IMG/VR virus record: IMGVR_UViG_3300025131_000006
DNA length: 64,000 nucleotides
Origin: a virus
Reading direction: 5' to 3' (one strand)
Below are positions 7,862-24,800 of the stretch, piece by piece. The translations under genes and the position numbers were made by a program. A model generated the notes under the pieces. It was not told where the DNA came from, made no database searches, and worked only from the letters and a program-made list of their open reading frames with translations. How positions within the stretch are numbered: the stretch's first letter is position 1; each line of letters starts with the position of its first letter.

Positions 7862-10800
7862 ATGTCCGAGCCTGTTGAAACAGTTGAGTCTCCTGATTTG
7901 AGTCCTTCTCCGGAAGCCCTTGATCAGCATGCATTTATGGAGCAGTACCACAAAGAGGATGGTCCGGGGGAGGGAGGGGAACATCAGGTGCGCGATCTGA
8001 TGCGGGATAACTCTTGGGTGCGAGCAGCACATCTTCCGGTGAATCACAGCGAAGCAGGATGGAAGGCGGGTCGAAGAATGCCAGAGGGCATTGATCCGGA
8101 GCACGGGGAGATGTGGGATGGTTTTCGGACAGCCAACAAACTCTCCGCTTTCCATGGAGAGGAGCCGATCCATCCAGATGATTACAGGGAGATGTTTGAA
8201 TCCGACAGGGAAGCACGGGATCAGCATCGTGAATCTGTTTCGGTCTCCGACGTTCTGGGGGGATTTGGCTTGGAGTTGGGGAGGAAGAGTAAGCTTGACT
8301 CCGAGCCCGTTCAAATGGTTTCGGAGGAGCTTGGTCGCCTCCAAGGGGCGGGGATGTCCTTGTCGTCTCCGGGTTATCGTGGGGCTATAAAGTTAGAGAT
8401 GCAGTCACCAGACGACGATCCTGAGTATTGGGCGTATGGCCTGTTGAGAGGTGAGTACTTACCAAAGAAACACGCAATCCGCGTTGACCGCAGCGGTGAG
8501 TCTTTCGCACATGAGTGGTTTCACGCGGTAGATGGCGACTTGGGTTTGCCGAAAAGTTGGTGGCGCCGGGCAGCGCAAAAAGTAAAGACGGCTTTTGATT
8601 TTACCAAATTTGCGGCATCTAATGGTCAAGGAGATAGGCCAGAGTCGAGACACTTAGAGAGCTTTGTGAAGTTCCTTTCGACGATACCAACTGTGCAAGA
8701 GAGATGGGATCGGTCTTATTCGACGGAGTCAAGACCTGGGATGTTGGATTGGTTGCAAGGGGATATGCCGGAAGATCCTGGAAAGGACTTGGCCGAGTAT
8801 ATGTTGTCTCCGCACGAGGTGTGGGCACGATTCGGGGCACAGTTGGTCTCATACAGGTCGGCTGTTGCAGTTGCTCAAGGTAGATTGGCTCACCCGACCT
8901 TGTTGGCAAACCCATACAGTGAGTTGTTGAAAGATCCAGGTCATTGGACACATGAGGAGTTCTCTCGCATCGTGAAAGTATGGGAGAGATCTCCTCTCTC
9001 GAAGATGTTGGAGTCGGGGATAAGAAAGGCTCTTGGGTTTGGGGTGTTCTTGAAGTCTGAGGGCGAGCAACTGTCGCTGCCGTTCTCTATACGGGCACAC
9101 ACTCCAGGTGGCAGTGCTCCGCCTGCTGTCTCGCCACCAACACCTGTTGCGGATTCACCAGGAAGTTCAGTCACTGAACATTCAGGGACGGGCGGTGCAG
9201 CAGTTTCCAACAGCACGACCACCGATTCCTCTCCTGAAGTACCAACGGAAATAGTCCCGCCAGAACTGACCGGGGAGTGGGAACAGGCGGGAGGTGGCGT
9301 GCGGCATCGCGTAAAGGGCTATGTTCCCGTTATGTCGCATCCAAAATACGAAGAGATCGATCTTCATCCAGGGGCTTCTGCGAACGCGAGAGCCCATGCT
9401 TATCGGAATCGACGGGTATTGGAGGAGCCGAAAGTTGTTGATCATATGCCAATCCATGAGTATGGACACAGCGGCCTACATCAGGAGCGGGGGTGGGACG
9501 ATATACCGGGCCGATCCATACATGATCTGGAGGAGATTAACCGCCGGGGTGTGTCGATGCAGCACAGGTATCCATCGGTGGCATCGGTCGAGTTTGAGCC
9601 GGAAGAGATCTATTCGGCGATGGATGGTTTGCAAGCAGAATTCGAGCATCGATTCCAATCACAGCTTGGGGTGGTTAATAAGCACAAATACAAGGCACAA
9701 GTTCCCGACCACGGATTTTCGTTTGCCAATGAAGAGTCTGTGCGGAGTCCGGCACAGGTGGCAGCGGCGACATCTGCTTCGCTGTGGACAGGCGGGAAGG
9801 TCGAATATGTGCGCAATCCGGACCTTTGGGACTCAAACGAACTCGACAAGGAGAGCGTGGGAGGTCCTGGTGGGTGGGAGGGAGAGAGGACGGAAGAGAA
9901 TTACAGGATGGCGCATCGGGTGATGACACAGTTGGCACAACGTCAGGGTGACGAGACAGTGTCAGTTGCTCGTGGGATGGCCATTCCAAGTCATCACGTG
10001 CCAGGGTTTTTGGACAAGATGGACTTGGGAGACATCTCAAGCTGGACCAAGGGAAGTAATTATCAGCCCACTATGACTTTTGTGAGTCATGCCTTGGATC
10101 ATGGGTTTTGGGACGAAAGTCACCTTGAGTCTTTTGAGCACCAGCTTCGGGAAGGGCTGGAGCAGTCGGGGAACTTTGAGGAAGGAAGCGACGAGGTAGA
10201 TCAATTACTCGAAGAATATTTCGAGCACCACGGCGGGCCATTGGGGAACAATGGTGATGCTGACATTTTTGTTGAATTGGACATGGACAGTGAGGTGCGT
10301 CACTTCCGAGAGAGTAATCTTGGGCATTACTCTTCTGGCATGGCAGCAGTCGTGTTGTTGGCCGATACAAATATTGGAACGACACTGAACCACATCTCAG
10401 CTTATCCGGGTGAGTGGGAGCATGTGCTCGGAGGAGAGGCCACGGTGCGCGACGTGCGAAGGATTCCCTCTTGGGATTCAGGTGAGTGGGACGAGGAAGA
10501 TTTTTGGGACCATGATGAAGATGATTATGCCGCTCGCGAAGATCACCCAGCGTACGGAGACACAGGAGAGAAATTTACGGAATTCACGGGTGCCAATGAC
10601 CATCTTGTAGGTGGTCTCGAAATTTACGTTATCAAAGTCGAAGTGGCGCCCAAGTCCGAAGTAAAGAAGGGTCTCTCTCAAAAGGAGAAGCCCAAGCCGA
10701 AGACGTTCCAAGATTGGGTGGATTGGAACTTGAATATAAATCTTCCTCGAAAAGGCAAGGAGGAGCCGAGCACGAACAAGGACGAGAGAAAAGAGCAGCC

Positions 10801-13285
10801 TGTTATCACCAAGGGACCGACTTGGTCGGGGCATAAGTTGCAAGGGCGTGCGAAGGTCGAGGGTATGGACATCTCGATCGAAAACGCTCGCGGCAGCGTT
10901 CGTTCCGGCGTGGACCCGGATGGGAACAAGTGGGAAACGAAGATGCGCGATCCGTATGGGTATATCCGTCGGACACTTGGCGTGGACGGTGACCACTTGG
11001 ATTGTTTTTTGGGACCGCTTGCTCGGCGCCAAGCCGCAGGAGAGGATGTCGAGATCCCAAAGGTGTGGGTTGTTCATTCAAGAGACATTGAGACGGGTAA
11101 ATACGACGAAGACAAGGTGATGTTGGGGTACAAGGGGAAGAGCGAGGCTGTTTCTGCATTTCGGCATCACTATACTGACCCGGACCAGCACATAGGTCCG
11201 GTGTCCGAGTTCACGATGGAAGAGTTCAAGCATCGGATCTCCGACACGATGGAGAACCCGCGAAGATTGGGTCGTGGACGCTGGGTTAGAAAGTCGGAAG
11301 ATGAGTCGCGGGCTCCAAGCTCTCCCTTCTCTGCCAGTGATGCTTCGCAGAGGGCACCGTACCACGTCCAAGACGAGCCCTATAGAGCACCCCAGGCCCA
11401 CGCACCGACCCAGGACGCAAACACGTCGTGGCAGCCCCATTGGGCTGCTGTGGCCCCCACCGCAGAAGCACCGACGGAAGACAACGTGCCCAAAGAGGAA
11501 CTTGTCCCACAAGAAGAACCCCCTCACGCACCGTGGCGTCACATCAGCTTGCCCCACGAGGAATTATGGGAGGAGACGGCATACGGGGAGACGAACCAAG
11601 CTGAAGCGCAGCTTGATACAGGTGATATACAAGACGAGACGTTTGCACCCGGACCTGAATTCCCAGGACAAGACGACAATCAGGCGTCCGACGACAACGA
11701 AGAGAGTGCTCCGGCAGACCCGAAGCCGACTCAAACGCCAGCGTCGAGGACTCGATTCGCTGCTCAAGAGGCTCGTGAGTCTCGTGCCAAAGCATTCAAA
11801 GAGCAGCACAAGGGCTACGAGATACCGAGCTTGACAGAACTTTTGCATCACAACGAAGAGTACGATCACGACATCCACGTGAGCCGTGGGTGGTTTGGCC
11901 AGACTTATGTGGACAACAAGTGGAGTCCAGAGGGAGGAAGTCAAGGTCAAGTACTCGTGAAGTACGGGATTATGTCAGAAGAGGAGCAAGCCATTGCCAC
12001 GGAAGTGGGGGAGTTGGGGATTGGCCCGGTGGTTTTGGACTCCCACGCGGGTCTCGTAGACATCGATGCCAACAGTCCAGGTGTTCGGCAGCTAGAGAGC
12101 TACATCAGCCAAATGCGAGATCGTGGGATTGTCCGGGGCGACTCCGGGGCAGAGCACGAAGGGATGGGGTTGAACACAAACCATCCGTTTGCTGTGCCGG
12201 ACAGCGGGCGCCATAACCGACGAGCCCACTTGGGAGATGCCCTTGACGAGCACAGGGGCGAGTATGACTTCGACATCGAGGAGCGTCGGAATGAGCTTTT
12301 CGAAGGCACGTTGGGGTCTTTGGGCATTGAAGCATACAATGACGATGACCTGATGGCGGATTACGAGCCAAAGGATGTTTTGTATGAAGTGCAGGGGATG
12401 GAAGAGGATGACCCCGACGCTCCTTATAACTCAGACATCTATTGGGGAGAACCGGAGTTCGGTGCCTACTTGGCGGATGTGGTTCGCATGGTGGGTGGAG
12501 ATGAGTATGCAGTCGAAGATGTGGAGCAGACGTACGAAGAGTTGATGGAGATGCAGCGCTTCGCGGACGGCGAAACGAACGGAGACCTGGACGATCACGT
12601 GTTGGAGGCGGGCTTGGAGATGGGCTTGTACCACACGACGTCGATGCTTGAGCGAATCCGGAGCTTACTTAACATAAACAAGCTCCCTGTTGAGAACTTC
12701 CAAATGGGCGCTCGCATGGCGATGGAGTACTTGGAAGGGTACGAGCCGGTGGATGGTCTCTTCGGGGATCAGTACAGTTTCGACTCCGGCGACGTGGAGC
12801 CAGAGACAGCGGACGACGCGGACAAGTGGGTGCGGGCGAGCTTGGGCATCTTGGATATGATGTCCATTTTTCACGGAGAGGGCCTGACCCACGGAGATTT
12901 ACACACGTATAACGTGATGTGGGACGGAGAGGTGGGGCGTTTGATTGATTTCGGGATGGCGCAACGGTACGACCAAGACTCATTGGATTGGGGAGCCTAC
13001 CAGAACTTGCTTGTGAACTTACAGAAGGGTCTGAAGACGATGAGCATGCGGGGAGCAGCGGAGGCGGGCTTGTCGGGAGACAGTCGGATTGCAATGGAAG
13101 CCGGGATGCACAATCTTAGACAAGAGGTCAATGAGCTTGCAGGCAAAGTCACGGATGCACTGACGGACGCTCCAAGAGGAAAGCAGCGGCTGACTATGTA
13201 CTATGGCGACTTTGCCGAGATGGTTCGCGAGAAGACCTTGGATGTCTCCCAAGCGTACCATGAGCTACGATCGAAGTATCTGTAA
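7862..13285 (+). CDS. large polyvalent protein: zincin + ADP-ribosyltransferase + inorganic pyrophosphatase + protein kinase-like domain
   Basis: FAHEWFHAVD..EVWARF (zincin); ARGM..ISSWT..EWEHVL (R-S-E ART); ISIEN.RGS.RSG.D.DG..W....YGYIRRT.G.DGDHLD..DEDKVMLG (polyvalent-type PPase); MEYLEG..HGDLHTYNVM..IDFG (kinase). Alternative GTG start at 7850. Confidence 0.85.
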   Translation: MSEPVETVESPDLSPSPEALDQHAFMEQYHKEDGPGEGGEHQVRDLMRDNSWVRAAHLPVNHSEAGWKAGRRMPEGIDPEHGEMWDGFRTANKLSAFHGEEPIHPDDYREMFESDREARDQHRESVSVSDVLGGFGLELGRKSKLDSEPVQMVSEELGRLQGAGMSLSSPGYRGAIKLEMQSPDDDPEYWAYGLLRGEYLPKKHAIRVDRSGESFAHEWFHAVDGDLGLPKSWWRRAAQKVKTAFDFTKFAASNGQGDRPESRHLESFVKFLSTIPTVQERWDRSYSTESRPGMLDWLQGDMPEDPGKDLAEYMLSPHEVWARFGAQLVSYRSAVAVAQGRLAHPTLLANPYSELLKDPGHWTHEEFSRIVKVWERSPLSKMLESGIRKALGFGVFLKSEGEQLSLPFSIRAHTPGGSAPPAVSPPTPVADSPGSSVTEHSGTGGAAVSNSTTTDSSPEVPTEIVPPELTGEWEQAGGGVRHRVKGYVPVMSHPKYEEIDLHPGASANARAHAYRNRRVLEEPKVVDHMPIHEYGHSGLHQERGWDDIPGRSIHDLEEINRRGVSMQHRYPSVASVEFEPEEIYSAMDGLQAEFEHRFQSQLGVVNKHKYKAQVPDHGFSFANEESVRSPAQVAAATSASLWTGGKVEYVRNPDLWDSNELDKESVGGPGGWEGERTEENYRMAHRVMTQLAQRQGDETVSVARGMAIPSHHVPGFLDKMDLGDISSWTKGSNYQPTMTFVSHALDHGFWDESHLESFEHQLREGLEQSGNFEEGSDEVDQLLEEYFEHHGGPLGNNGDADIFVELDMDSEVRHFRESNLGHYSSGMAAVVLLADTNIGTTLNHISAYPGEWEHVLGGEATVRDVRRIPSWDSGEWDEEDFWDHDEDDYAAREDHPAYGDTGEKFTEFTGANDHLVGGLEIYVIKVEVAPKSEVKKGLSQKEKPKPKTFQDWVDWNLNINLPRKGKEEPSTNKDERKEQPVITKGPTWSGHKLQGRAKVEGMDISIENARGSVRSGVDPDGNKWETKMRDPYGYIRRTLGVDGDHLDCFLGPLARRQAAGEDVEIPKVWVVHSRDIETGKYDEDKVMLGYKGKSEAVSAFRHHYTDPDQHIGPVSEFTMEEFKHRISDTMENPRRLGRGRWVRKSEDESRAPSSPFSASDASQRAPYHVQDEPYRAPQAHAPTQDANTSWQPHWAAVAPTAEAPTEDNVPKEELVPQEEPPHAPWRHISLPHEELWEETAYGETNQAEAQLDTGDIQDETFAPGPEFPGQDDNQASDDNEESAPADPKPTQTPASRTRFAAQEARESRAKAFKEQHKGYEIPSLTELLHHNEEYDHDIHVSRGWFGQTYVDNKWSPEGGSQGQVLVKYGIMSEEEQAIATEVGELGIGPVVLDSHAGLVDIDANSPGVRQLESYISQMRDRGIVRGDSGAEHEGMGLNTNHPFAVPDSGRHNRRAHLGDALDEHRGEYDFDIEERRNELFEGTLGSLGIEAYNDDDLMADYEPKDVLYEVQGMEEDDPDAPYNSDIYWGEPEFGAYLADVVRMVGGDEYAVEDVEQTYEELMEMQRFADGETNGDLDDHVLEAGLEMGLYHTTSMLERIRSLLNINKLPVENFQMGARMAMEYLEGYEPVDGLFGDQYSFDSGDVEPETADDADKWVRASLGILDMMSIFHGEGLTHGDLHTYNVMWDGEVGRLIDFGMAQRYDQDSLDWGAYQNLLVNLQKGLKTMSMRGAAEAGLSGDSRIAMEAGMHNLRQEVNELAGKVTDALTDAPRGKQRLTMYYGDFAEMVREKTLDVSQAYHELRSKYL
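9165..9179. repeat. 15-bp palindrome, site 4 (inside CDS linker)
   Basis: GTTCAGTCACTGAAC encoding SSVTEH. Confidence 0.9.
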
Positions 13286-13302
13286 CCAAACCAGGAGCAA
13301 GA

Positions 13303-13521: not shown

Positions 13522-13530
13522 GGTGCAGTG

Positions 13531-14766
13531 ATGAGTCCAAAAGACGGTGGTTTTGGGGTATTGCGTAAGAGCGAGGAGCACGACAGCTTCCAGTCGAGCA
13601 GTTATGCCGTACCAAGGGAGCAGATGACGTGGCGTCCTCCCACGCCGAATATTCCGGGCCGCCCTGTTTCGCCTCCAAGTGGGCAGCCCCAGGAACAGGC
13701 CCCGATCACTCCGCCCCCGGTGCAGCCCGGCACAGAGACTCCGACTCCAGAAGACGCTGCGTCGATGCCGAGCTTTCACGATCGTGATCATGGATGGATG
13801 TCGCATCTGTTGCCATCCCAGGAGCATGCGAACAATATGCCGGGGCATACGAAGATGGACAGCGACCAACTTTACATGCACCACAGCTTCGCAAGGCCAT
13901 TCACCGATCTGTCCCAGTTTGATGGTGTGGACTCCAGAGTTGAGCACCGAACTGTACAGATGGGTGACAGGGAGTTCCACCAAGCCAAGGGAGACTTGTC
14001 GCACGAGGCGGTCCACATGGGGAGCTTTGAGAGGCGTTTGGAGCGGGGCCTTGACGGTGGTTTGGAGTTGCACAACGAGCACATGTTGGTGAACCCAGAG
14101 TTCCGGGGCAAAGGGTATTCTTCCCAGTTTTATGCACGCCAAGAAGACTACCTCCGGCAATTGACACAGCACTTGCCGGAGCAAGAGAAAGCAAAGACGC
14201 GGGTCACAATGTTGGCGGATGTGGTGATCGGTCGATACCAATGGATGACGCAGGGGTATCGATTCTCCGATCATGCGACTCGTTCAGACGTCGTGCGCAG
14301 TTGGCATTCTCAATTGGAAGACCTGTTGGCGGGTCACGCGGGCATCGTGGGTCCGGAGGCGGGCAAGAAGAAAAAAGATGTGACGTGGGGCGACTTGCAG
14401 TCGATGGAGCCGAGGTCGTTGGATGACTTGGGGCTCCGCGAGTCTGCGGAGGAGTTGCGGGATAAACTGTGGGACGCACAATATGACGAGAACATCGAGC
14501 CGTGGGACTTGTTGGCGATGGATCCTGGACACCGTTTTTTGATGAGGGCTTATTCGCAGACGGACGAGCAGAACGTTGTGCCGGGCTCGCTGATCAAGTT
14601 CTTGGCGTTGTGTGGTCCGGATTGGTCTGCGGTCAAGTACGTTCATGGTCCCACCGAGAAAGACCAAGAGGGCATCGAGTTCGGCGACGAGCGGCGCCAT
14701 CGAATGGCACAGCACGCCCATCGTTCGGGTCGCCCGTGGGGGTGGTTGCAGTCGCAAGACAAATAA
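13531..14766 (+). CDS. GNAT-family acetyltransferase domain protein
   Basis: VNPEFRGKGYSSQF (acetyl-CoA motif A), then ADVVIGRYQW..QGYRF. Confidence 0.75.
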   Translation: MSPKDGGFGVLRKSEEHDSFQSSSYAVPREQMTWRPPTPNIPGRPVSPPSGQPQEQAPITPPPVQPGTETPTPEDAASMPSFHDRDHGWMSHLLPSQEHANNMPGHTKMDSDQLYMHHSFARPFTDLSQFDGVDSRVEHRTVQMGDREFHQAKGDLSHEAVHMGSFERRLERGLDGGLELHNEHMLVNPEFRGKGYSSQFYARQEDYLRQLTQHLPEQEKAKTRVTMLADVVIGRYQWMTQGYRFSDHATRSDVVRSWHSQLEDLLAGHAGIVGPEAGKKKKDVTWGDLQSMEPRSLDDLGLRESAEELRDKLWDAQYDENIEPWDLLAMDPGHRFLMRAYSQTDEQNVVPGSLIKFLALCGPDWSAVKYVHGPTEKDQEGIEFGDERRHRMAQHAHRSGRPWGWLQSQDK

Positions 14767-14781
14767 TCTCTGTCTATATAT

Positions 14782-15063: not shown

Positions 15064-15084
15064 TCTCACCCCAAGGTGATTCCA

Positions 15085-16716
15085 ATGCCCATAGAAAATC
15101 CATCGTCACAATCTTTGCCAAAAGCAGGAGTCGTGCCTGCACCGGGTTCCGGGTTTGGAGTTGTTCCGAAAGGGGATGGTACGTCGCGACCTCCAACGTC
15201 GCCAAAGATTGAAGTGGGGGAAGACCTCAGTGTTTCCGATCCATCGGGGTTTGGAGTGCAGTCTCGAAGCCAGGATGTTCGAGGATACGCCCATCCGTCT
15301 GTGCCTGTGCCAGGAGCACAGAGCTTGGAGGAGACGAAGCAGCCGAATATTCCTGTAACAAATGAAAACTTGCCAGGAGAGCGTATCTTCCCCAGTGGTT
15401 ATCCTGCTCCGGCGGATGGGTTGCCACCTGTAACGCCGGAGCAGCTAGAGGCGGACTACCATCAGTTTATGGATAACAGAAGAGCAGACTTGGAGCAGGC
15501 CATACTCCAGGCCAACAGTTCTATTGATCCGCACTCGGATCACTATTCTCGTGTTTTGGAATACGAGCTTTTGGACCATGATCTGAATACGCACGTGGCG
15601 GGATATGCTCATCGTGAGAGACAGGGAGAGAGCCCAACTCAAACGATGGATCAGGTGATGGAGGAGAAAGAGAACGTCAGGAAAATGCACAAGTTGGAGG
15701 CGGAGATTCGAGAGAATGCACCGGATCTCCAGCTTCATGTAAGACAGCACAGCATACCACGGGGCCAAAGCCAATCTGTGTTGAGGGGTTTGGCCGACAA
15801 GACCACGGGTCACGGCACTCCGTGGATGCGAGGGTCGTTTTACAGCTTGTCTCCGCAAGATCAGGATATGTTGGAGGCGATTGCTCTGTTTACAGACGGG
15901 GCCTTTACGAAAGGGCTGCGTGACCCTCATCTTATGGCAGCCGATAATCAACGGGACTCGTTCAGGGGCGTTGTGTCAGGTGCTCGCTTTGCCGACGGAT
16001 CGAGAGTTCAGTTTCACCCGACAAGCAGGGGCTATGTGAAGGCTCACCAAATACTCCGAGAGCTAGGGGCCTCTCCGTACGAAGCAGAGGACGGTGCTTT
16101 GTTTCGCGGAATGACCTTACCGGTAGAGACGATAGAGCATCTCTTGGACGGCGACGAATTCGATCTCCAGGGCGTGAGTTCTTGGACGGATAGCCGAGCC
16201 GATGCTTTGGATTTTACAGCAGGGACTCGACATCCCGGTGTGTTGTTTGTGTTGGAGGAGCCGAAGTGGGGAACAAATATATCGAGATTGAGCAATTTTC
16301 CTCGCGAACGAGAGACAGTCGTGGGTGGTCGTGTCCAGGTGGTGTCGTCTGAGATGTCTGTCCATAACGATGTTCACGTGATTCGCGTCACACACATAGG
16401 GCAGCCGGAGAGCATTATGAAGTCAAAAGATCGTGAGCCAGGACACTTGGACGTTATCGAGCGTGAGTTCCAGCAGATAATGCCTCACCAGCGTAGGAAT
16501 CGCATGGATAGAGAGATGGCACGACGTGCTCAAGCAGAAGAACAAGAGGAGTCGGGCTTCGGTGTTGTGACTCGTGATTCTGAACAGGAAGACGAGGAGA
16601 AGTCTCTTGCGGGGGTTTCTCGGCATATGGTGCAGAGGTTGGCGAAGGAGTCTGTGCGAAGACGCGGGCTTCAGCCAAAGCCCGATGGAGTTTCGGCAAA
16701 GCCACCGGTCACGTGA
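15085..16716 (+). CDS. ADP-ribosyltransferase domain protein
   Basis: LFRGM..GVSSWT..NISRLSNFPRERETVVGG; similar to the ART in 7862..13285. Confidence 0.8.
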   Translation: MPIENPSSQSLPKAGVVPAPGSGFGVVPKGDGTSRPPTSPKIEVGEDLSVSDPSGFGVQSRSQDVRGYAHPSVPVPGAQSLEETKQPNIPVTNENLPGERIFPSGYPAPADGLPPVTPEQLEADYHQFMDNRRADLEQAILQANSSIDPHSDHYSRVLEYELLDHDLNTHVAGYAHRERQGESPTQTMDQVMEEKENVRKMHKLEAEIRENAPDLQLHVRQHSIPRGQSQSVLRGLADKTTGHGTPWMRGSFYSLSPQDQDMLEAIALFTDGAFTKGLRDPHLMAADNQRDSFRGVVSGARFADGSRVQFHPTSRGYVKAHQILRELGASPYEAEDGALFRGMTLPVETIEHLLDGDEFDLQGVSSWTDSRADALDFTAGTRHPGVLFVLEEPKWGTNISRLSNFPRERETVVGGRVQVVSSEMSVHNDVHVIRVTHIGQPESIMKSKDREPGHLDVIEREFQQIMPHQRRNRMDREMARRAQAEEQEESGFGVVTRDSEQEDEEKSLAGVSRHMVQRLAKESVRRRGLQPKPDGVSAKPPVT

Positions 16717-17085: not shown

Positions 17086-18609
17086 ATGGCACTAACAGAT
17101 CTGAGTATATATTTGGAGCCTCCGCAAGTCCAGGGCACTATGTTGCCCTCAGACGGCTTAATAGAGTTCTCGCGAAACGAGCGTGGTCGGGAGACGGTCA
17201 AGTTACGCCTGATGCCGACTCCCAATGATGGGACGAACACAGGCGAGATCGTCACAATCAAGATGTTCAAGAGCCGCCGGGACGGAACCGAAGAGGTCAC
17301 CCAGGCTCGCAAGACTTTTACGTTTTCGGGCGCCACCCCAATGGGAGGAGCCGAGGTCTCGTGGGACTTGCGCGAGATCGTGTACGATACCAAGAATCTG
17401 TTCCCGGTGGTTCGCCGAGGCGATTACTTCTTTGAGGTCACCCACACGGGTCCGGTCGCGTCGTCGCTGACGAAGTTATCGGACGTGTTCCGCGTCGCGC
17501 TGATGACGTCGGATCGTTTGGAGGCCGAGTGGCTGCGGGGAACGACTCGCAGGTCCAATGACGATCGCGGTGTTCGATTCCAGCCCAAGATCATTACGGG
17601 AGTCCGGGTGATAGAGGTGTCCAAGTCATATCCGTTGGACCTATATCCTCTTCGCTTGGTGAAAGGAAAAGAGGCGACGCCCGTTTGGTTTCTCTCGTGG
17701 GATGGAGGTGAACTGATTCGGTTGGACACCTCTATTACGCAGGCGGCGATCAATGCTTCGTATATTCTTCCTAATCGAACGCAGCAAGACTATATTGTCG
17801 TTCAAGTCGATCCACGACTGCTCCCGACATCGGACACGACAGAACAGTTGATGGTCGATCGGGAGTTGTTGGACCGGGATTCGTTGCGGCGTTGGATCGA
17901 CGCAGAGTGCCAATGGTTAGAGGAGTCCTATTTGCACACGCCGATTGAGCCTGCTTTGTGTGTTTCTGATATGGGAACCTCATTGTCTGGGTTGGGCTCC
18001 ATGGGTCAAGGTTCCGCGTTGACGTCGCTGCCGAACAACAACGATTACGACTTGTTGGGTCCGCCGATTACAATGGAAGACCTGAAGCCTGGTCAGTGGA
18101 TCAATATGCGTGTGCCGTTTGGTTACCCTTTGGAGTGGGAGTACTTTGAGGGTGCCCAGGAGAATCGTCGAGTTGTCAGTGTGCGGGTAGACGCTCTGCA
18201 CACGGGCATTGGGCATCATGTGGAGTTGGTGCCATTTACGAATGCAACAGCATACCAATTCATTGGTTTGCACCTGATGAGTGCCTTGTATAGCCCAAGG
18301 ACGCTGCCGTCGTTCTGGCGTTACAGGTATTGGGCGGGCATTCCGAACCCTGTAACGCCAATGCCGATCATCGAGATCATTGGGATGCGGGCAGCGGTTA
18401 AGGCATTGATGGTCTTGGGACAGATGTTCCGAGGTGGGTATTCGAGCTTGTCAATGTCACGGGATGGGGTCCATCAGTCGGCGAGCTTCACATCTTCGGC
18501 GATGTATGGGATTTACAGTGCGACTATCGAGGGCTTGGAGAAGCGTTTGCAAACCTTGCAGTTGCAGTTGAAGCGAAAGTACTTTGGCATTTATGCGGAC
18601 GTGCTCTAG
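17086..18609 (+). CDS. putative head-tail adaptor/neck protein with N-terminal extension
   Basis: C-terminal GYSSLSMSRDGVHQSASFTSSAMYGIYSATI...LKRKY resembles large-myovirus neck proteins. Confidence 0.55.
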   Translation: MALTDLSIYLEPPQVQGTMLPSDGLIEFSRNERGRETVKLRLMPTPNDGTNTGEIVTIKMFKSRRDGTEEVTQARKTFTFSGATPMGGAEVSWDLREIVYDTKNLFPVVRRGDYFFEVTHTGPVASSLTKLSDVFRVALMTSDRLEAEWLRGTTRRSNDDRGVRFQPKIITGVRVIEVSKSYPLDLYPLRLVKGKEATPVWFLSWDGGELIRLDTSITQAAINASYILPNRTQQDYIVVQVDPRLLPTSDTTEQLMVDRELLDRDSLRRWIDAECQWLEESYLHTPIEPALCVSDMGTSLSGLGSMGQGSALTSLPNNNDYDLLGPPITMEDLKPGQWINMRVPFGYPLEWEYFEGAQENRRVVSVRVDALHTGIGHHVELVPFTNATAYQFIGLHLMSALYSPRTLPSFWRYRYWAGIPNPVTPMPIIEIIGMRAAVKALMVLGQMFRGGYSSLSMSRDGVHQSASFTSSAMYGIYSATIEGLEKRLQTLQLQLKRKYFGIYADVL

Positions 18610-18614
18610 GAGAG

Positions 18615-19829
18615 ATGGAACAGATGGACGATCTTAAGATTGGAGGAGAAGGTCCGGCTTCTGCGGAGGCTCAGGGAGTGCAGGGAGAGGCATCCAGTAA
18701 GCTGCCGTTTCCTCACCCTGTGGCGAATTCGAACGATCTCTCCGGGGCAAGTCGAGACGATCTGGTGAGCCATTATGAGCAGAGGAGCACAGAGCTAAAA
18801 GACCAAGAGATGTTCCAAGCGAGAGAGGCTATGGAACGGGGGGGTTCCCCAGAGGTGGAGCTTGTTCCTTCACACATGCATAGGTATGAGAAAAAGAAGT
18901 TATTTGGAGGGTCGCCACCGCGAGAGCATTCAAAGGAGGCTTGGAAGAGGGTTATTGGCACCGGGAAGAGCCCTGCTTGGGATTGGTATGCTGACTCCCA
19001 AATGCGTGCTGCGGAGGAAGGCCAGCCCCCGACACATATGGATGATTGGATTGAGCAGTGGATGGAGAAGCACAGAACCTCCGTCACAGAAGAGCACAAG
19101 GAGGATGTTCGCAGCGGTGCATTCGCCGAGCGCCGTGGGGTTGATTTGAATGGGGTTGGTGGGGATGTCAGTGTTCATGTGGCTGAAGCGCTTGAGGATA
19201 ACCTGTTAGCACCTCTTCCCAGGAACAGAGGGGCGTTAGGGGTCGTCCATCACAGAACGGGCAATGAGTTCGTGCGTTATGGGGATCTTTACATGGGGGC
19301 GTATCATGTAAAGCAGCACACTATTGAGATTGGGACTTCGGGAGAGTCCTTCGCTCACGAGTTTTTCCACGCTCTAGACAGTGATACGGGTTATAATTGG
19401 TGGGGTAGGGTCAAGATGGAGTTCGGGACTCCTGTGTATGCTTCGGAGGGGTCGGGGCGAACTCCTGAGGCTCGCGAGCTTGCAAAGTTTACCCACCTTT
19501 TGGGGCACTCTTTGAGCAAGACAAGAGGGAGGCACTTAAAAGATTTGTCTCCTGCGGCGAAGAGGTATTTTTACGAGCCGAAAGAGTTGTTGGCTCGATT
19601 TGGAGAGCAAATGGTCTCCCATCTTTCGCACCTGCACGCTGCCCATGGGGTTCACTCAACAGCAACAAAGTTGGCGAAGGACATTGACCATTACTACCAC
19701 AGCCCTGTTCATTGGGACAAAAGAACGCTCCAGGCTCTCCTCCATGTATGGGGTGGTCTGTCTGTCGGAAAGAGGATGCTTGGCGACGTGGAGAAAGCTT
19801 TTGGGTTCGGTGTAATGGTGAAGCTGTAA
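18615..19829 (+). CDS. stand-alone zincin-like (HExxH) protein, paralogue of the N-terminal domain of 7862..13285
   Basis: SGESFAHEFFHALDSD...ELLARFGEQMVS...KAFGFGV vs SGESFAHEWFHAVDGD...EVWARFGAQLVS...KALGFGV. Confidence 0.8.
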   Translation: MEQMDDLKIGGEGPASAEAQGVQGEASSKLPFPHPVANSNDLSGASRDDLVSHYEQRSTELKDQEMFQAREAMERGGSPEVELVPSHMHRYEKKKLFGGSPPREHSKEAWKRVIGTGKSPAWDWYADSQMRAAEEGQPPTHMDDWIEQWMEKHRTSVTEEHKEDVRSGAFAERRGVDLNGVGGDVSVHVAEALEDNLLAPLPRNRGALGVVHHRTGNEFVRYGDLYMGAYHVKQHTIEIGTSGESFAHEFFHALDSDTGYNWWGRVKMEFGTPVYASEGSGRTPEARELAKFTHLLGHSLSKTRGRHLKDLSPAAKRYFYEPKELLARFGEQMVSHLSHLHAAHGVHSTATKLAKDIDHYYHSPVHWDKRTLQALLHVWGGLSVGKRMLGDVEKAFGFGVMVKL

Positions 19830-20029
19830 TGCGAACGGTTGTTCTCAAGTCGCACCGAGCACGAGCGTTGCAGTCCGAGCGACGGCAGTTGCAACGCCAA
19901 TTGGCATCGGCAAGCTCCGAGGGAGAGAGATCGAAGATCTTAGAGGAGCTACGAATCCGGATGGCAGAGATATTGCGGGAAGAGGGGGAGGATCGACAGA
20001 GTGCTTACGGGATAGCCCACATGAAGTGA
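19829..20029 (+). CDS. small coiled-coil protein
   Basis: TAATG stop/start overlap with the zincin gene. Confidence 0.65.
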   Translation: MRTVVLKSHRARALQSERRQLQRQLASASSEGERSKILEELRIRMAEILREEGEDRQSAYGIAHMK

Positions 20030-20063
20030 ATGTTGTGACTATATTGGAGGGGGAGGTGATGGC

Positions 20064-20312: not shown

Positions 20313-20330
20313 GGGGGAGAAGGGAGGGGA

Positions 20331-21530
20331 TTAGATGGGGGTGGCGACGACGCGGGTGAGTTTGGTTTCTCGGTTTCCGCGATAGGTGTCAACGGCTTTG
20401 ATGGTGGCTTTGATTGCGTATGTGGCTCCTCGCTCGATGTCGGGGCATCCGGAGGCGAACCAAGTGGCGACGCGGCCAAGGGCGTCACGGAATTTGCAGA
20501 TAGTGGTGAGTCCGTAGTATCCTTCGCTCGGAAAGGTTCCGATGCAGGTGGCTTCCCATTCGGGGAGTGCGGAGACGCCGTTGTCACGGTCTTTTTTGGA
20601 GAGTTTTCTGCCGATCTTGTCACCTTCGCCGCCGAGCCATTCGGAGGGGGGCAGGGCGGCATCGGCGGCTTTTTCTGCTTCGCGGTTGAGGTGCCGCTCA
20701 TAGGCAGGGATGGCAGCAGCGACGATGCCGATGTTTTTGACTTCGCAGGTTTCCATGGAGCAAGCGACGCGGAGGTTGTGGAGGAAGTCGTTTTTGGTGT
20801 CTTCGGGGAGGGAGGACGCCCAAGCGGTAGCAGCGATGCCGGTTTCGATGTCGGCCTGTTCGGGTCTGTTGGCCTTGAGGCAGAGAGCGTTGAAGGCTTG
20901 GTCAGCCGTGGACTCGCCGGACCAAGATGCTTTGCCGCGACCGAGGAAGCCATAGAGTCGGATTTCACGGGCCACGTAACCGAGGTAGGTGGCGATGCCG
21001 ATGCGGCGATCGGAGGTGTCGTATCGACCTTCCATGTTGAATCTTTGGCAGTCGCGAAGGAAGCTCAAGCGATCGGCGATGTCGGAAGCGGTGGAGAGTC
21101 CAAGGAAGTCGGCGAGGCAGTTGCGACCGACGCGGATGAACGAGCCGTCTTCGTCGTTTTGGAGGACAAAGGTTTCCTTGCGACGCCGTTTGGTGTGGCA
21201 GTGGTCGCAGGAGTTCTTTGCTTCGCGGAAATCGACGGGGAGTTCCACGGAGGTTTTGGGGAACATGTTGATGATATTCCCGGCAGACTCGTGTTGGACG
21301 ACGGCGATGGGGGTGAAGCCCTCGATGACGATCGAGGGCGTATCGACGAGTTCGCCGATGTGATAGAGTTCAAAGAGCCCGGTGGGTCCGAGAACATCGT
21401 GGATCTCGACTTCGTCGGTGCCGGTCCACTCGTAGGAGGGAGGGGTCAGGCCAAAAGAGATAGCTTTTTTGATGAGGCGTTTGATGCGGCGTTCGAATTT
21501 TTTCTTGTTGGTGTCGTGGATGCGAATCAT
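20331..21530 (-). CDS. phage hypothetical protein with Cys/His cluster and OB-like C-terminus
   Basis: CDHCHTKRRRK...VGRNCL.DFLG; C-terminal IKATIK...YRG..ETKLTRV. Confidence 0.75.
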   Translation of the reverse strand: MIRIHDTNKKKFERRIKRLIKKAISFGLTPPSYEWTGTDEVEIHDVLGPTGLFELYHIGELVDTPSIVIEGFTPIAVVQHESAGNIINMFPKTSVELPVDFREAKNSCDHCHTKRRRKETFVLQNDEDGSFIRVGRNCLADFLGLSTASDIADRLSFLRDCQRFNMEGRYDTSDRRIGIATYLGYVAREIRLYGFLGRGKASWSGESTADQAFNALCLKANRPEQADIETGIAATAWASSLPEDTKNDFLHNLRVACSMETCEVKNIGIVAAAIPAYERHLNREAEKAADAALPPSEWLGGEGDKIGRKLSKKDRDNGVSALPEWEATCIGTFPSEGYYGLTTICKFRDALGRVATWFASGCPDIERGATYAIKATIKAVDTYRGNRETKLTRVVATPI

Positions 21531-21531
21531 T

Positions 21532-21678
21532 CTATTCTTCCTCTTTGAGTTCGACGGTGAAGCTTTCGCCTTCGGCGATGTCAGCTACCATTTTGATGAT
21601 TTCCGTTCGGGAGATGTCGGCTGACCAGATGTCTGTTTGGCCATCTTCCCACTTTATTTCCCAGTATTTTTCGCTCAT
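21532..21678 (-). CDS. small acidic protein (48 aa)
   Basis: MSEKYWEIKWEDG..., first gene after promoter copy 4, GGAG RBS. Confidence 0.55.
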   Translation of the reverse strand: MSEKYWEIKWEDGQTDIWSADISRTEIIKMVADIAEGESFTVELKEEE

Positions 21679-21708
21679 CTTTTCTCTCTCCGTCTTGGAA
21701 TGTTCGAC

Positions 21709-21745
21709 TGTAATGGCTTTCTCCCCGTTCTATTTTGCGGTGCAA
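21709..21745 (-). promoter_or_regulatory. conserved 37-bp promoter-like motif, copy 4
   Basis: TTGCACCGCAAAATAGAACGGGGAGAAAGCCATTACA on minus strand. Confidence 0.75.
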
Positions 21746-21762
21746 ACCGGAGGGGTTATCTT

Positions 21763-21777
21763 GTTCAGTCACTGAAT
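21763..21777. repeat. 15-bp palindrome, site 7
   Basis: GTTCAGTCACTGAAT (1 mismatch). Confidence 0.85.
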
Positions 21778-21864
21778 ATTGTGCTTGGATTCTGTACATA
21801 TCTATGGTGATTCGTGTATGGTGTCGGTGGGGTACAGGGCAGCATCACTCTTGGAGTTATTGAT

Positions 21865-24800
21865 ATGGAATTGGTTTGCATCGAATGCTTATCAGGTGGC
21901 TTCGGCTTGTTTGTGAAAGGTGCGGGGCACAAGTACATCAAGCGCGAGTTGGTTTCGACTTCTCCAAGAAAGTATCGGTATTGGTACAAGCTCCCCAGAG
22001 GAGCCTTGGTGCATGATGACGCCGTTCACGTGGGCGCCAAGTTCCGTCATGGTTCCGGTGACGATCGCGGGCACTATCACGTAGACGAGGTCCATGATGA
22101 TGGCTCGGTCAGCGTTACCCACGATGAGACCGGACATACGACCAAAGTGTCTGCACACAAGCTCAAAGACATGATCCACACGGGTGATCATGATCTAGGT
22201 GAATCTCCCCAAGAGAAAGGGGAGCGGGTGCTCCAAAGCTACCAACAGGCTCTCCAGACGGGCACAGACAAGCAGATCTCGCTGCGCTTACATGATCTGA
22301 TGGAGCACGTGGCGGCTTATCCGCAAGAGTCGGTGTCGTTGGGTTATGCGTTGGCTCAAGCAGATCCAGGCGTCAAAGAGGCCATGTTGTCATTGGCTCA
22401 TGGTGGGGTGTCCACGTTCAAGACGCACAAGTCCACAAAGAAGCGTGGAAAGAAGGGCGAGAAAACAAAACACGGTGGAGCACACGTCGAGGTGACGTTG
22501 GAGCACCGTTCGTATGGAAAGATCGTCGAGGATTCGGCCAAGCAGTTGGAGCAGTTGGATGAGTCGGCGATTGTTCAGGAGATCCAAGAGAAGACGGGCG
22601 CCACAGAAGACGAAGCCAAGCAGGCGTTCTTGGCTGTAAAGAACAGCTTGGCAAAGAAGCAGAACTCTTCGAATGAGGGGGCATCGTATCTGGAGCCCTT
22701 CACGATAGACGGCGAGTCTGTTCCGGGCGTTTTTGTTTACAGTGGGAGTAATGAGAGCAAGAAGGGAACTCTTTATGTTCGCGGACTGATCGAGAACGAA
22801 GACGTGTTGGACCCTGGGTTTGGACCGGCTCCGAAGTCTGCGAAGCCGGGTAAGGTTCTCGCTCGTGCTCAGGCTGTCATGCGGTCCAAGTTGGACATAG
22901 GCCGGGTGCGTCAATACACGTTGACGCCGAGTGCTTTGTACGAGTGGTCACACGCTCCGGCAACCGGGGCAGACTTCAAAGAGGTTGATGGAGGGGCTGC
23001 TGATCAGGATAGCCTAGCTAGCCAGGCAGATTCCGGGTCTAAAAGTTCAGTCACCAAACAGTCTCACAAGGAAAGTTCGGACCTGGCTAATAGCCAGGTC
23101 GCCGAAGAGTCACCAGATGAGTTGGACGAGAGCTTGCCTTCCGGCAGCGAGGGTCTTCAATACGAGGGTGCCAAAAAAGGAGGTCAGTACCCCGGAGCAA
23201 TCGTGAGTCACCCAGACTTCCCCGACAAGCAGTTTATGGTTAAGCCAGGACGGGATTTTTTGGTGCACGCAGAAGTTGCCGGTACGAATCTGGCGGCACG
23301 AGTGCTCGGCGACGATGTAGCCAAGGCACGTCATATCGATGTAGGTGGAGCCCCGCAATCGATCGGAAAGGGCCAGCAACACGCATCGATTCAAGAGATG
23401 CGCGAGAACGACGGAGATTTGGTCTCCAATCGATATGACAGTCACATGATCCGGAATCTCCCGCAAGAGTTGAAACAAGATGTGCTGCGTCATCAGGTGG
23501 CGACGTGGTTGGTGGGTGATTCGGACGCTCACGCCGGGCAGTTCTTGCGTGGGACCGACGGGAGTTTGATTCGGATTGACTTGGGTCAAGCGTACAAGCA
23601 CATCGGCAACGATCGGCTCGATCCGAGCTGGCAGCCGAACAATCCCCCGCCGGTAGTATCCCATCTGTTGGTGGGCGATTACGCAAAGGGCCAGGGAGAG
23701 TTGGACTTCACGGACCCCCGGATCAAAGAGGCAGTGGAGAGAGCCGAGTCCATCACAGACGATGAGGTGGCACAAGCAGTCCAGCCGTATGCCGACGGTT
23801 TGGAGAAATCGGGTATTCGCTCTGCGAAAGAGACGATCGCGAAGGCAGTGGCTCGAAAGAACGGCATCCGGTCTGACTTCGAGCAGTACTTCTCCAAGGC
23901 ACTCTCGCAGCGACACGGCAAGCCGATGACGTTTTCGTTTGAGGACGGCATCTCGGAGGGCGGCGTCTCTAAGGGTTTTGGGGTGTGGAGCAAGAGTGGC
24001 ACTCCGGTGGAAGATGCAGACGACTCGACTGAAGCACCGACGAGGTTTCACGGTGCCAAGTTGTTTTATATAGAGCCTTTGATGGAAGAGCCCAAGGGTT
24101 TCGGGGCTCTCACGAAGGGCAGTAAGCATAAGTATGTGAAGCGAGAAGTTCGTATTGGACCTGATGGCAAGAAGCGTTATCGGTATTGGTATAAGCTCCC
24201 CAAGGGACATATCGTGACCGACGACTCTCTTCATATAGGTGCCAAGTTCCGCCACGGTAAGGACGAGGAGCGGGGGCACTTTCATATCGAGAGCATAAAT
24301 CCGGATGGGACAATGAACGTTCGGCATGATGAGACCGGAGAGTTCAAGAAGGTCACGCTCGACAACTTGCGCGGGATGATCCACACGGGAAGCCACGACA
24401 TCGGAGAGAACCCTGCGAGCAAGCTCCAGCGGTTGTTGGAGTCTTTGCACTTAGCGTTGCAGCACGGGACGAAAAAGCAGTACAATAAGCTGTACGAGCA
24501 TGTGATGGAGCACGTGGAGGCGTTTCCTCATATCGCGTTCGAGGGGAACGAGCCTGTCACATCGGACCATGTGCAAGATAAAATGGCGGATGTGTATTCG
24601 GCGGGCAAGCTGTCAGAGCACTTGGACGACCACGAGCACTTGTCGGATGAGGTGAAGTACCAGGGCTTCTTTGCGGAAGCCAAAGCATTGGCCGAAAAGT
24701 ATCATGATGCCTTGGTGGAAAAAGCTAGAGAGGCGGGTGCTAAGGGGTCTTCGTACACATATTGGATTATCAATGAGGCAATCTTTAAAAAGTTAAACAA

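What the first reader, a model, noticed from the sequence alone, without database searches (positions are those of the whole stretch)
9035..24120. A repeated GFG[VLA]xx[KR][SG]-like tag marks termini and domain boundaries of all five effector proteins
Seen: GFGVFLKS (9035), GFGVLRKS (13549), GFGVVPKG (15151), GFGVQSRS (15247), GFGVVTRD (16555), GFGVMVKL-stop (19803), GFGLFVKG (21898), GFGVWSKS (23974), GFGALTKG (24097). All lie near N/C-termini or between domains; shorter K-S/G sites (EVKKG, ITKG, VRKS) also flank the PPase domain. Known: in SPO1/A511/Twort-like myoviruses the capsid precursor is cleaved after Lys before a small residue. Inference: a combined head-packaging and prohead-protease signal that turns these polyproteins into separate enzymes ejected with the DNA, i.e. 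an addressable cargo tag.
Basis: partly seen in the sequence, partly recalled or inferred. Interest (0 to 1): 0.8.

Follow-up and report, generated by a model that had tools for sequence, protein, structure and literature searches.

The report
Capsid-leader-like tag on phage cargo proteins
Five large accessory proteins of an uncultured phage carry a short tag, Gly-Phe-Gly-hydrophobic-x-x-Lys, that looks like a shortened copy of the capsid-protein leader which related phages cut off during head maturation. The tag probably marks these proteins for trimming, and perhaps loading, inside the virus head, but no cut or packaging has been measured.

Summary
All nine GFG[VLA]xx[KR] sites lie at the stated coordinates in five + strand ORFs. 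About 0.04-0.06 sites are expected by chance. None occurs in the other 11,233 residues of the window, and the codons differ between copies. Two pairs of copies are paralogous, so seven are independent. Three are N-terminal leaders, with Lys at residue 13, 13 and 18. One is C-terminal, and the rest lie at domain ends or in linkers.

The phage's own head genes lie upstream and could not be fetched. Relatives with the same neck and tail genes have a capsid protein and prohead protease of the SPO1/Twort/A511 type. In that family the capsid leader ends in [L/I]-x-K|[A/S]. Scaffold-position proteins are packed with such sites. About 40% of representative leaders also hold GFG at a fixed distance upstream. 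The cargo tag joins both elements in eight residues.

My best reading (0.5) is a prohead-protease processing tag, perhaps also a head-targeting tag, on polyvalent cargo proteins (InPase, kinase-like and HExxH domains). Rivals are cutting by the cargo's own HExxH domain, whose two copies end exactly in the tag, and an encapsulin-like docking peptide.

This scan has reported similar cargo polyproteins with other cut-site codes in other genomes, and noted this same tag in overlapping windows of this genome.

The parts
7850..13285 (+). 1811-aa polyvalent protein (likely start ATG 7862). N-terminal HExxHxxD domain at residues 63-402, inorganic pyrophosphatase (InPase) domain at 998-1129, kinase-like catalytic-loop region at 1664-1711.
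   Evidence: ORF. Pfam PF18823 InPase E 1.7e-38, and APH/RIO/Pkinase hits. PHROG hits include minor head protein, virion structural protein and DarB-like families.
8036..9055 (+). HExxHxxD (LPD1-like, possibly zincin-type) domain of the 1811-aa protein. HEWFH lies at 8510-8524. The domain ends in the tag.
   Evidence: 30% identity, E 7e-31, to the 404-aa protein, with the alignment running to the tag. No Pfam hit.
8261..8290 (+). Loose tag copy GFGLELGRKS, with Lys two residues later than in the core tag.
9035..9058 (+). Tag GFGVFLKS, preceded by IRKAL and followed by a Pro/Ser/Thr-rich linker.
10802..10816 (+). Short site VITK|G, just upstream of the InPase domain.
   Evidence: L001 (MWFLK|S) and G001 (SVRK|S) have K|S directly before their InPase domains.
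11282..11296 (+). Short site WVRK|S, just after the InPase domain.
13528..14766 (+). 412-aa cargo protein (start ATG 13531, 411 aa). No homologue was found; it has weak GNAT-like motifs.
   Evidence: Self hit only in 5.8 billion proteins. GAGG-type ribosome-binding site before ATG 13531. Pfam GNAT E 0.09.
13549..13572 (+). Tag GFGVLRKS as an N-terminal leader (residues 7-14 of the 411-aa protein).
15076..16716 (+). 546-aa ORF, called as 527 aa from GTG 15133. No homologue was found.
   Evidence: self hit P0001 of 527 aa. AGGAG before GTG 15133.
15151..15174 (+). Tag GFGVVPKG as an N-terminal leader (residues 7-14 of the 527-aa form).
15247..15270 (+). Tag GFGVQSRS, 32 residues after the first, in a polar N-terminal region.
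16555..16578 (+). Tag GFGVVTRD inside an acidic linker, before the last 46 residues.
17086..18609 (+). Conserved 507-aa neck or tail-proximal structural protein without a tag. The cargo genes are inserted on both sides of it.
   Evidence: 47-50% identity in L001 and G002, and 30-35% in 37 capsid-linked loci. Atlas label 'tail protein'.
18615..19829 (+). 404-aa stand-alone HExxHxxD (LPD1-like) protein. HEFFH lies at 19356-19370.
   Evidence: Paralogue of 8036-9055. Atlas matches LPD1 clusters with score 0.93 and TM 0.65 by row. No Pfam hit.
19803..19826 (+). Tag GFGVMVKL at the very C-terminus, followed by TAA, which overlaps the ATG of a 66-codon ORF.
21814..27813 (+). 1999-aa protein (likely start ATG 21865), with a duplicated HKY[IV]KRE...YRYWYKLP domain at residues 36-177 and 769-906.
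   Evidence: ORF. Internal repeat of 50% identity, E 6e-46. No Pfam or PHROG family.
21898..21921 (+). Tag GFGLFVKG as an N-terminal leader (residues 12-19 from ATG 21865), directly before the first HKY domain.
22816..22839 (+). Loose tag copy GFGPAPKS.
23974..23997 (+). Tag GFGVWSKS, followed by an acidic 33-residue spacer.
24097..24120 (+). Tag GFGALTKG, directly before the second HKY domain.

Best explanation
The tag is a portable processing signal, and probably also a head-targeting signal, that imitates the N-terminal leader of the phage's own major capsid protein.

Inferred steps:
1. The five late proteins are polyvalent cargo proteins made together with head and neck proteins.
2. Their tags are presented to the Herelleviridae-type prohead protease, which cuts after Lys or Arg in hydrophobic-x-K|[S/G/A].
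3. Cutting removes the 13-18-residue leaders of three proteins.
4. Cutting also splits the 1811-aa and 1999-aa chains, and the 527-aa protein, at domain borders.
5. The GFG part, shared with capsid leaders, most likely gives the extra contact that brings the proteins into the procapsid or to the protease.

Shown here: the tag's specificity and statistics, its position, the cleavage rule of the capsid family, and the kinship of the clade's heads.

Inferred only: that this phage's own protease has this rule, that the proteins are in the head, and that they are cut.
For: 1. The tag is sharply specific: 9 copies against 0.04-0.06 expected, none in neck, sheath, tube or baseplate proteins, and varied codons.
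2. Three of the five proteins carry it as a leader ending at residue 13, 13 or 18. This is the layout of known head-cargo propeptides.
3. Relatives with the same neck, sheath and tube genes have a capsid protein (phrog_752) and protease (phrog_1028) like those of Bacillus, Staphylococcus and Listeria Herelleviridae. In 37 of 80 capsid-anchored loci, a homologue of window gene 17086-18609 lies 3-5 kb downstream, in the same gene order.
4. The cleavage rule is supported as follows. PDB 9row chains start at S25 after K24. The aligned Lys is invariant. In 136 representatives P1 is K in 132, P1' is A in 121 and S in 11, and P3 is L or I in 132. ORFs between protease and capsid gene have 35.1 such sites per 1000 residues against 4.9 elsewhere.
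5. In the tag, P1 is K or R, P1' is mostly S or G, and P3 is hydrophobic in 8 of 9 copies.
6. GFG is a conserved element of capsid leaders: 53 of 136 representatives have it, 40 of them at one fixed spacing, and 74 of 80 IMG/VR loci have it.
7. The family already uses mimicry of the capsid N-terminus. Protease C-tails carry EEK|AL[ST]AGG...LVPESLEG, a copy of the mature capsid N-arm.
8. The cargo nature fits: InPase polyvalent proteins are predicted to be virion-packaged (PMC5512222), and PHROG neighbours include minor head and virion proteins.
9. The InPase domain is preceded by hydrophobic-x-K|[SG] in three phages, once as a 5-residue leader, MWFLK|S.
Against: - The phage's own capsid protein, scaffold and protease were not seen. 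The link rests on relatives at 30-60% identity and on unverified first-stage notes.
- The spacing from GFG to Lys is 6 in the tag but 14 in capsid leaders.
- P1' is D in one copy and L in another.
- The C-terminal copy would lose only one residue if cut.
- Related head regions (80 loci) and the giant cargo ORFs of relative G002 lack the tag, so there is no comparative conservation.
- Two HExxH domains end exactly in the tag, which fits a different cutter.
Confidence: 0.5

Rival explanations
1. The tag is the cut site of the cargo's own metallopeptidase. The HExxHxxD domains (the 404-aa protein, and residues 63-402 of the 1811-aa protein) would process the polyvalent proteins in cis and in trans, in the head or after injection. 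This is what has been proposed for zincin-like MPTase domains of polyvalent proteins. The domains would end in the tag because they release themselves there.
For: - Both paralogues keep SGESFAHE[FW]FHA[LV]D and both end in KA[FL]GFGV[MF][VL]K.
- An Asp three residues after HExxH is described for a phage-type MPTase clade, and MPTases are proposed to process polyvalent proteins (PMC5512222).
- The tag and the HExxH domains occur together in this phage only. Relatives L001 and G002 have neither.
Against: - There is no Pfam hit to any peptidase family, even at E 5.
- The Atlas neighbours are LPD1, a domain of unknown function.
- The structure model was too poor to test the fold (pLDDT 46).
- Removing 13-18-residue N-terminal leaders is typical of prohead proteases and has no obvious purpose for self-processing.
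- The tag's K|small rule and its GFG both match the capsid leader, which this reading leaves as coincidence.
Confidence: 0.2
2. The tag is a docking peptide only. It would work like an encapsulin targeting peptide, binding a pocket on the inner face of the HK97-fold capsid protein, or on scaffold or portal, and loading cargo without needing to be cut. The GFG of the capsid leader would use the same pocket.
For: - The tag works at N-terminal, internal and C-terminal positions, and is often present in several copies per protein.
- The C-terminal copy makes sense only as a binding tag.
- Its shape resembles family 1 encapsulin peptides (GSLxIGSLK, GGDLGIRK, LTVGSLRR; PMC10960027). Compare GGFGVLRK in the 411-aa protein.
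- GFG is conserved in capsid leaders at a fixed spacing.
Against: - The sequence does not match the encapsulin consensus residue for residue.
- Eight of the nine copies are not C-terminal.
- The Lys followed by a small residue, and the hydrophobic P3, are exactly what the family protease needs, so cutting is hard to avoid if the tag enters a procapsid.
- There is no structural or binding test.
Confidence: 0.15
3. The tag has no signalling role. It would be a linker remnant spread by duplication and module shuffling among a few recently expanded genes.
For: Two pairs of copies are clearly inherited with their neighbouring domains. The five genes are lineage-specific, and two have no detectable homologues.
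Against: - Seven copies have unrelated flanks.
- Codons have diverged while the residues are kept.
- Three copies sit at the same distance from an initiator codon in unrelated proteins.
- The chance expectation is about 0.05.
Confidence: 0.07

Closest known systems
Phage T4 capsid targeting sequences on internal proteins IPI-III and Alt, removed by prohead protease gp21 (reviewed in PMC9026906, PMC9958956)
   Same: Both are short N-terminal leaders on unrelated head-cargo proteins that end in the prohead protease's cut site. In T4 the leader both targets the protein and is removed.
   Different: T4 cuts after Glu (L/I-x-E) with a different protease family. T4 leaders are N-terminal only. Here the site is hydrophobic-x-K|S/G with an added GFG, and it also occurs inside giant proteins and at a C-terminus.
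Propeptides of ejection and inner-body proteins in giant phages phiKZ, 201phi2-1 and SPN3US (PMC5694885, PMC7411985, PMC10052503)
   Same: Many head proteins, including enzymes ejected into the cell, are processed at a shared motif by the prohead protease.
   Different: Processing there has been measured by mass spectrometry; here nothing has been measured.
N-terminal leader of Herelleviridae major capsid proteins (A511, K/phi812, SPO1 types)
   Same: The same rule of Lys before a small residue with a hydrophobic P3 applies. GFG is present in SPO1-like and marine members.
   Different: The capsid leader is 23-35 residues long with GFG 14 residues before the Lys. The cargo tag compresses this to 8 residues and sits on non-capsid proteins.
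Polyvalent proteins of phages and conjugative elements (Iyer et al. 2017, PMC5512222)
   Same: These are large chains of unrelated effector domains, including InPase, encoded next to structural genes. They are predicted to be packaged and processed.
   Different: That work proposes embedded zincin-like peptidases as the processors and defines no linker motif. Here a sharp linker or leader motif matches the capsid protease rule.
Family 1 encapsulin targeting peptides (GSLxIGSLK and relatives; PMC10960027)
   Same: These are short Gly/hydrophobic/basic peptides that load unrelated cargo into an HK97-fold shell.
   Different: The consensus is different, encapsulin peptides are nearly always C-terminal, and they are not cleaved. 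Binding of the phage tag to a shell has not been tested.

Membership tests
Prohead-protease-processed head cargo with a targeting leader (T4 IP/Alt type) | Short N-terminal leader ending in the protease's consensus site | tested here: met
   Three of five proteins have GFG-x3-K at residues 7-13, 7-13 and 12-18 from start codons that have a ribosome-binding site.
Prohead-protease-processed head cargo with a targeting leader (T4 IP/Alt type) | The same site is used in the phage's own capsid protein and scaffold | tested here: inconclusive
   The phage's own head genes lie outside the window and could not be fetched. In relatives and the wider family the rule [L/I]-x-K|[A/S] holds for capsid leaders and for ORFs in the scaffold position.
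Prohead-protease-processed head cargo with a targeting leader (T4 IP/Alt type) | Protein present in the mature head and cut at the site | not testable with these tools
   This needs virion proteomics or N-terminal sequencing.
Polyvalent proteins (Iyer et al. 2017) | Large protein combining several unrelated effector-type domains | tested here: met
   The 1811-aa protein has an HExxHxxD domain, InPase PF18823 (E 1.7e-38) and a kinase-like region. The 1999-aa protein has a duplicated domain plus long unassigned parts.
Polyvalent proteins (Iyer et al. 2017) | Encoded among phage structural or packaging genes | tested here: met
   The genes flank the conserved neck gene upstream of sheath and tube.
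Polyvalent proteins (Iyer et al. 2017) | Zincin-like MPTase domain as processor | tested here: inconclusive
   The HExxH plus Asp at +3 fits a described clade. There is no Pfam hit, the Atlas neighbours are LPD1, and the model was poor.
Herelleviridae-type head (capsid protein phrog_752 plus protease phrog_1028) | The phage's own capsid protein and protease belong to these families | not testable with these tools
   The genes lie upstream of the window. The inference comes from relative G001 and from synteny in 37 of 80 capsid-anchored loci.
Family 1 encapsulin targeting peptide | C-terminal peptide matching GSLxIGSLK or LTVGSLRR-type consensus | tested here: not met
   Only one of nine copies is C-terminal. 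The residues do not match the consensus quoted in PMC10960027; only the general shape is alike.
Family 1 encapsulin targeting peptide | Binds a pocket on the luminal face of the HK97-fold shell protein | not testable with these tools
   The phage's own capsid protein was not available and no binding test was possible.

The most novel reading that the evidence does not exclude
A tailed phage has turned a piece of its capsid protein's own leader into an 8-residue address label that works on any protein at any position. The GFG part docks the protein inside the assembling HK97-fold shell, as encapsulin targeting peptides do. The hydrophobic-x-K|S part lets the head protease release it. This would be a phage counterpart, and possibly an evolutionary relative, of encapsulin cargo loading, and a ready-made tag for loading foreign proteins into phage heads.
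Probability: 0.2. Interest if true: 0.8.

Novelty: new variant of a known kind. Interest (0 to 1): 0.6.

Why it matters
Head-packaged, injected proteins are a main way in which phages defeat host defences in the first seconds of infection. Rules for how proteins get into heads are known for only a few model phages, namely T4 and the phiKZ group, and both cut after Glu.

If this reading is right, it provides:
- a Lys-type rule for the large SPO1/Twort-like capsid lineage and its many uncultured marine relatives;
- evidence that a cargo tag can arise by shortening the capsid protein's own leader;
- a very short candidate tag that could be tested for loading reporters or enzymes into phage heads;
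- a concrete pair of hypotheses, capsid protease against embedded metallopeptidase, for how polyvalent proteins are cut. That question has been open since these proteins were described.

Tried and rejected
Fetching the phage's own head module failed:
- No whole genome is held.
- An exact 42-base pattern was absent from viral contigs.
- Neither the window's first ORF nor the sheath recovered the contig from metagenome contigs.
- Genome contigs gave nothing.

Homologue searches gave little:
- Megablast of the cargo region, and tblastn of the sheath, the 412-aa protein and the 404-aa protein, found nothing among 50,697 phage records.
- The 412-aa and 546-aa proteins have no homologues in 5.8 billion proteins apart from themselves. 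Conservation of the tag in orthologues therefore could not be tested.

Searches for the tag elsewhere were negative:
- The compressed tag was not found in 80 capsid-anchored IMG/VR loci.
- Capsid-like long leaders were not found on non-capsid ORFs there.
- The giant ORFs of relative G002 do not carry the tag.
- GFGVLGR[SE] in the baseplate-hub-like protein of L001 and L013 is part of that protein and is not kept in the window's homologue, so I rejected it as a tag.

Structure and complex predictions were not usable:
- The HExxH domain model had pLDDT 46 and the 546-aa segment model had pLDDT 31. Both were too poor for fold searches, so none was run.
- Complex prediction with the G001 protease (residues 1-172, 16-row alignment) and the 45-residue leader region of the 411-aa protein returned no verdict.

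Other points:
- The held library did not contain a text stating the A511 cut site. I used the PDB chain start instead.
- The simple pattern hydrophobic-x-K-[ASG] is only weakly enriched in the cargo proteins, so I do not rely on it.
- A DNA-level repeat explanation is rejected because the codons differ.

Full report
**What the window is.** The 64-kb window is from an uncultured large myovirus-like phage. Almost all long ORFs are on the + strand. PHROG profiles identify a tail sheath (31636-34737) and baseplate proteins, and the tail tube is at 36911-37324. A virion structural protein lies at 29232-30071 and a Dam methylase at 28321-28884. No isolated phage is close: megablast and tblastn against 50,697 records found nothing.

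**The observation.** They lie in the reading frames of five long ORFs: 7850-13285, 13528-14766, 15076-16716, 18615-19829 and 21814-27813. Two looser copies were not listed: 8261 GFGLELGRKS and 22816 GFGPAPKS.
- The pattern GFG[VLAIM]xx[KR] occurs 9 times in 5,172 residues of these proteins.
- It does not occur in 11,233 residues of the other + strand ORFs.
- Shuffles give a mean of 0.04, and none of 5,000 reaches 9.
- In 1.35 Mb of related phage DNA the pattern occurs 8 times in 672,975 residues of open frames, so about 0.06 is expected here.
- Codons differ between copies, so the constraint is on the peptide.

**How many copies are independent.**
- The 404-aa protein (residues 102-403) is a paralogue of residues 63-402 of the 1811-aa protein (30% identity, E 7e-31). 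Both alignments end in KA[FL]GFGV[MF][VL]K.
- In the 1999-aa protein, the 159 residues that start just before the tag at 21898 are 50% identical to those starting before the tag at 24097.
- Seven occurrences are therefore independent, which is still far above chance.

**Position of the tags.** I used the start codons that have a ribosome-binding site and that gene callers chose.
- Three proteins begin with a leader in which GFG is at residues 7-9, 7-9 and 12-14, and the Lys at 13, 13 and 18.
- One tag is the C-terminus of the 404-aa protein.
- The others close the HExxH domain, open the duplicated HKY...YRYWYKLP domain, or lie in acidic or polar stretches. Not all flanks look disordered.

**What the proteins are.**
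- The 1811-aa protein has an inorganic pyrophosphatase domain of the polyvalent-protein type (PF18823, E 1.7e-38) and a kinase-like catalytic region.
- Its PHROG neighbours include minor head, virion structural and DarB-like families.
- Iyer et al. describe such InPase domains as phage-specific parts of polyvalent proteins that are probably packaged in virions (PMC5512222).
- The HExxH domains carry an Asp three residues after the motif, as in one phage-type metallopeptidase clade of that paper. However, they hit no Pfam family, resemble LPD1 clusters only in the Atlas, and could not be modelled.
- The 412-aa and 546-aa proteins have no detectable homologues.

**The cargo genes are lineage-specific insertions.**
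- Relative L001 (IMG/VR, 40.7 kb) has homologues of 6956-7849, 17086-18609, 29232-30071, 30512-31453 and the sheath, in the same order.
- Between them it has only a stand-alone 157-aa InPase.
- Relative G002 has unrelated giant ORFs (2655 and 1254 aa) at the same two places around the neck gene, without the tag.

**The head type.** The phage's own head genes lie upstream of the window and could not be fetched. I therefore used relatives.
- A tail-tube alignment found ten IMG/VR contigs.
- In one of them (G001, 52 kb) the upstream region encodes, in order: a portal with a LAGLIDADG intein, an InPase-bearing 1116-aa protein, a protease of phrog_1028, two scaffold-position proteins, and a capsid protein of phrog_752.
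- Both capsid protein and protease match hundreds of Herelleviridae records from Bacillus, Staphylococcus, Listeria and Enterococcus phages.
- A scan with a capsid alignment gave 80 further loci. In 37 of them a homologue of window gene 17086-18609 lies 3-5 kb downstream of the capsid gene. It is followed in 22 by a homologue of 29232-30071 and in 12 by the sheath.
- The window's neck and tail module is thus regularly coupled to this head type.
- Unverified first-stage notes on the same genome fit this picture: an intein in the portal, a capsid N-terminus with GFG and LNKAL, and a scaffold rich in K-S sites.

**The cleavage rule of that head type.**
- In alignment A5 one Lys is invariant near the N-terminus...EDALK|SFTTGYG (A511-like)...EDVVK|SFQTGYG (K-like)...DALNK|ALEAGH (SPO1-like) and ...DQLQK|ALEAGY (G001).
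- PDB entries 9row, 9rox and 9roz hold the K-like capsid protein as a 439-residue chain that starts at S25, directly after that Lys.
- From memory, Loessner and Scherer (1995) reported removal of 23 residues from A511 Cps. I could not read that paper here.
- Among 136 full-length representatives from a search of 1.84 billion proteins, P1 is K in 132, P1' is A in 121 and S in 11, and P3 is L or I in 132.
- ORFs between protease and capsid gene in the 80 loci carry 35.1 hydrophobic-x-K-[ASG] sites per 1000 residues, against 4.9 elsewhere. This is what is expected of scaffolds that the protease destroys.
- G001's two such proteins have 34 and 24 hydrophobic-x-[KR]-[ASG] sites per 1000.

**How the tag relates to the capsid leader.**
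- The tag's second half fits the cleavage rule: Lys or Arg, then mostly Ser or Gly, with a hydrophobic residue at P3 in 8 of 9 copies.
- Its first half, GFG followed by a hydrophobic residue, is a conserved part of capsid leaders. It is present in 53 of 136 representatives, in 40 of them exactly 14 residues before the Lys, and in 74 of the 80 IMG/VR loci.
- The tag is therefore best described as a compressed capsid leader.
- The family also uses capsid mimicry elsewhere. Protease C-tails contain EEK|AL[ST]AGG...LVPESLEG, a copy of the mature capsid N-arm behind a cut site.
- The InPase domain is preceded by hydrophobic-x-K|[SG] in the window (VITK|G), in G001 (SVRK|S) and in L001. In L001 it forms a five-residue leader, MWFLK|S.

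**Most likely mechanism.** The five proteins are late-expressed head cargo. Their tags bring them to the prohead protease, and perhaps into the procapsid. The protease cuts after the tag's Lys or Arg, removing the leaders and separating domains of the giant chains. I give this 0.5.

**Weak points of that reading.**
- The phage's own head genes were not seen.
- The GFG-to-Lys spacing differs between tag and capsid leader.
- Two copies have an atypical P1'.
- One tag is C-terminal.
- The tag is absent from all 80 related head regions and from G002's cargo, so there is no comparative support.

**Rivals.**
- The HExxH domains, which end exactly in the tag, may be the cutters, as proposed in general for polyvalent proteins (0.2).
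- The tag may be a docking peptide like encapsulin targeting peptides (GSLxIGSLK, GGDLGIRK), without obligatory cutting (0.15).
- It may be a passive linker remnant (0.07).

**Comparison with known systems and verdict.** The closest systems are T4 capsid targeting sequences and the propeptides of phiKZ-like ejection proteins. The logic is the same, but those systems use a different protease family and cut after Glu. This scan has reported similar cargo polyproteins with other motif codes in other genomes, and first-stage readers noted this tag in overlapping windows of this genome. I rate it a new variant of a known kind. The link between a cargo tag and the capsid protein's own leader is the new element.

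Noticed in passing
L017:4791-5561 (- strand) and protease genes in L024-L103: Prohead proteases of this capsid family carry in their C-terminal tail a near copy of the mature capsid N-arm behind a Lys-Ala site (EEK|AL[ST]AGG...LVPESLEG). This probably co-assembles them into the procapsid and then lets them be released.
   Followed up: partly
window 19827-20029: The C-terminal tag is followed by TAA in a TAATG overlap with a 66-codon ORF that begins MRTVVLKS, again hydrophobic-x-K-S near an N-terminus. First-stage notes say the phage has an ochre suppressor tRNA. In-frame read-through of this TAA gives no obvious extension.
   Followed up: partly
window 15076-16716, residues about 340-415: The 546-aa protein has a motif triad like R-S-E ADP-ribosyltransferases (FRG ... 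SSWT ... ERE), which would parallel T4 Alt. There is no Pfam or PDB sequence hit, and the AlphaFold model failed.
   Followed up: partly
window 13528-14766, residues about 180-215: The 412-aa protein has a weak GNAT acetyltransferase-like stretch (RGKGYSSQ; Pfam E about 0.1).
   Followed up: no
window 21919-22344 and 24118-24531: There is a duplicated 140-residue domain (HKY[IV]KRE...YRYWYKLP...GAKFRHG...RGH[YF]H) with no family assignment. Each copy starts directly after a tag.
   Followed up: partly
L019 (G002:50000-65904), - strand: Relative G002 has giant ORFs of 2655 and 1254 aa, with acidic tandem repeats (EEDTQVSSRPEED, QEDDQQ), at the same two places around the neck gene where the window has its cargo genes. 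The neck gene seems flanked by hypervariable cargo islands.
   Followed up: partly
L001 13899 and L013 9633: The baseplate-hub-like proteins of two relatives share GFGVLGR[SE] at the same position. The window's homologue (40862-43219) has EDYGVTTNPVLRS there.
   Followed up: partly
L008 7330-7590 and L010 4287-4556: The sheath genes of two relatives contain an insert that resembles residues 108-201 of the window's baseplate wedge-like protein (46659-48311). This looks like a shared decoration domain.
   Followed up: no
L017:11565-14588 (- strand): The portal gene of relative G001 carries a LAGLIDADG intein and is followed by a 1116-aa InPase protein. The same arrangement was noted by first-stage readers for the window's own genome.
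   Followed up: partly
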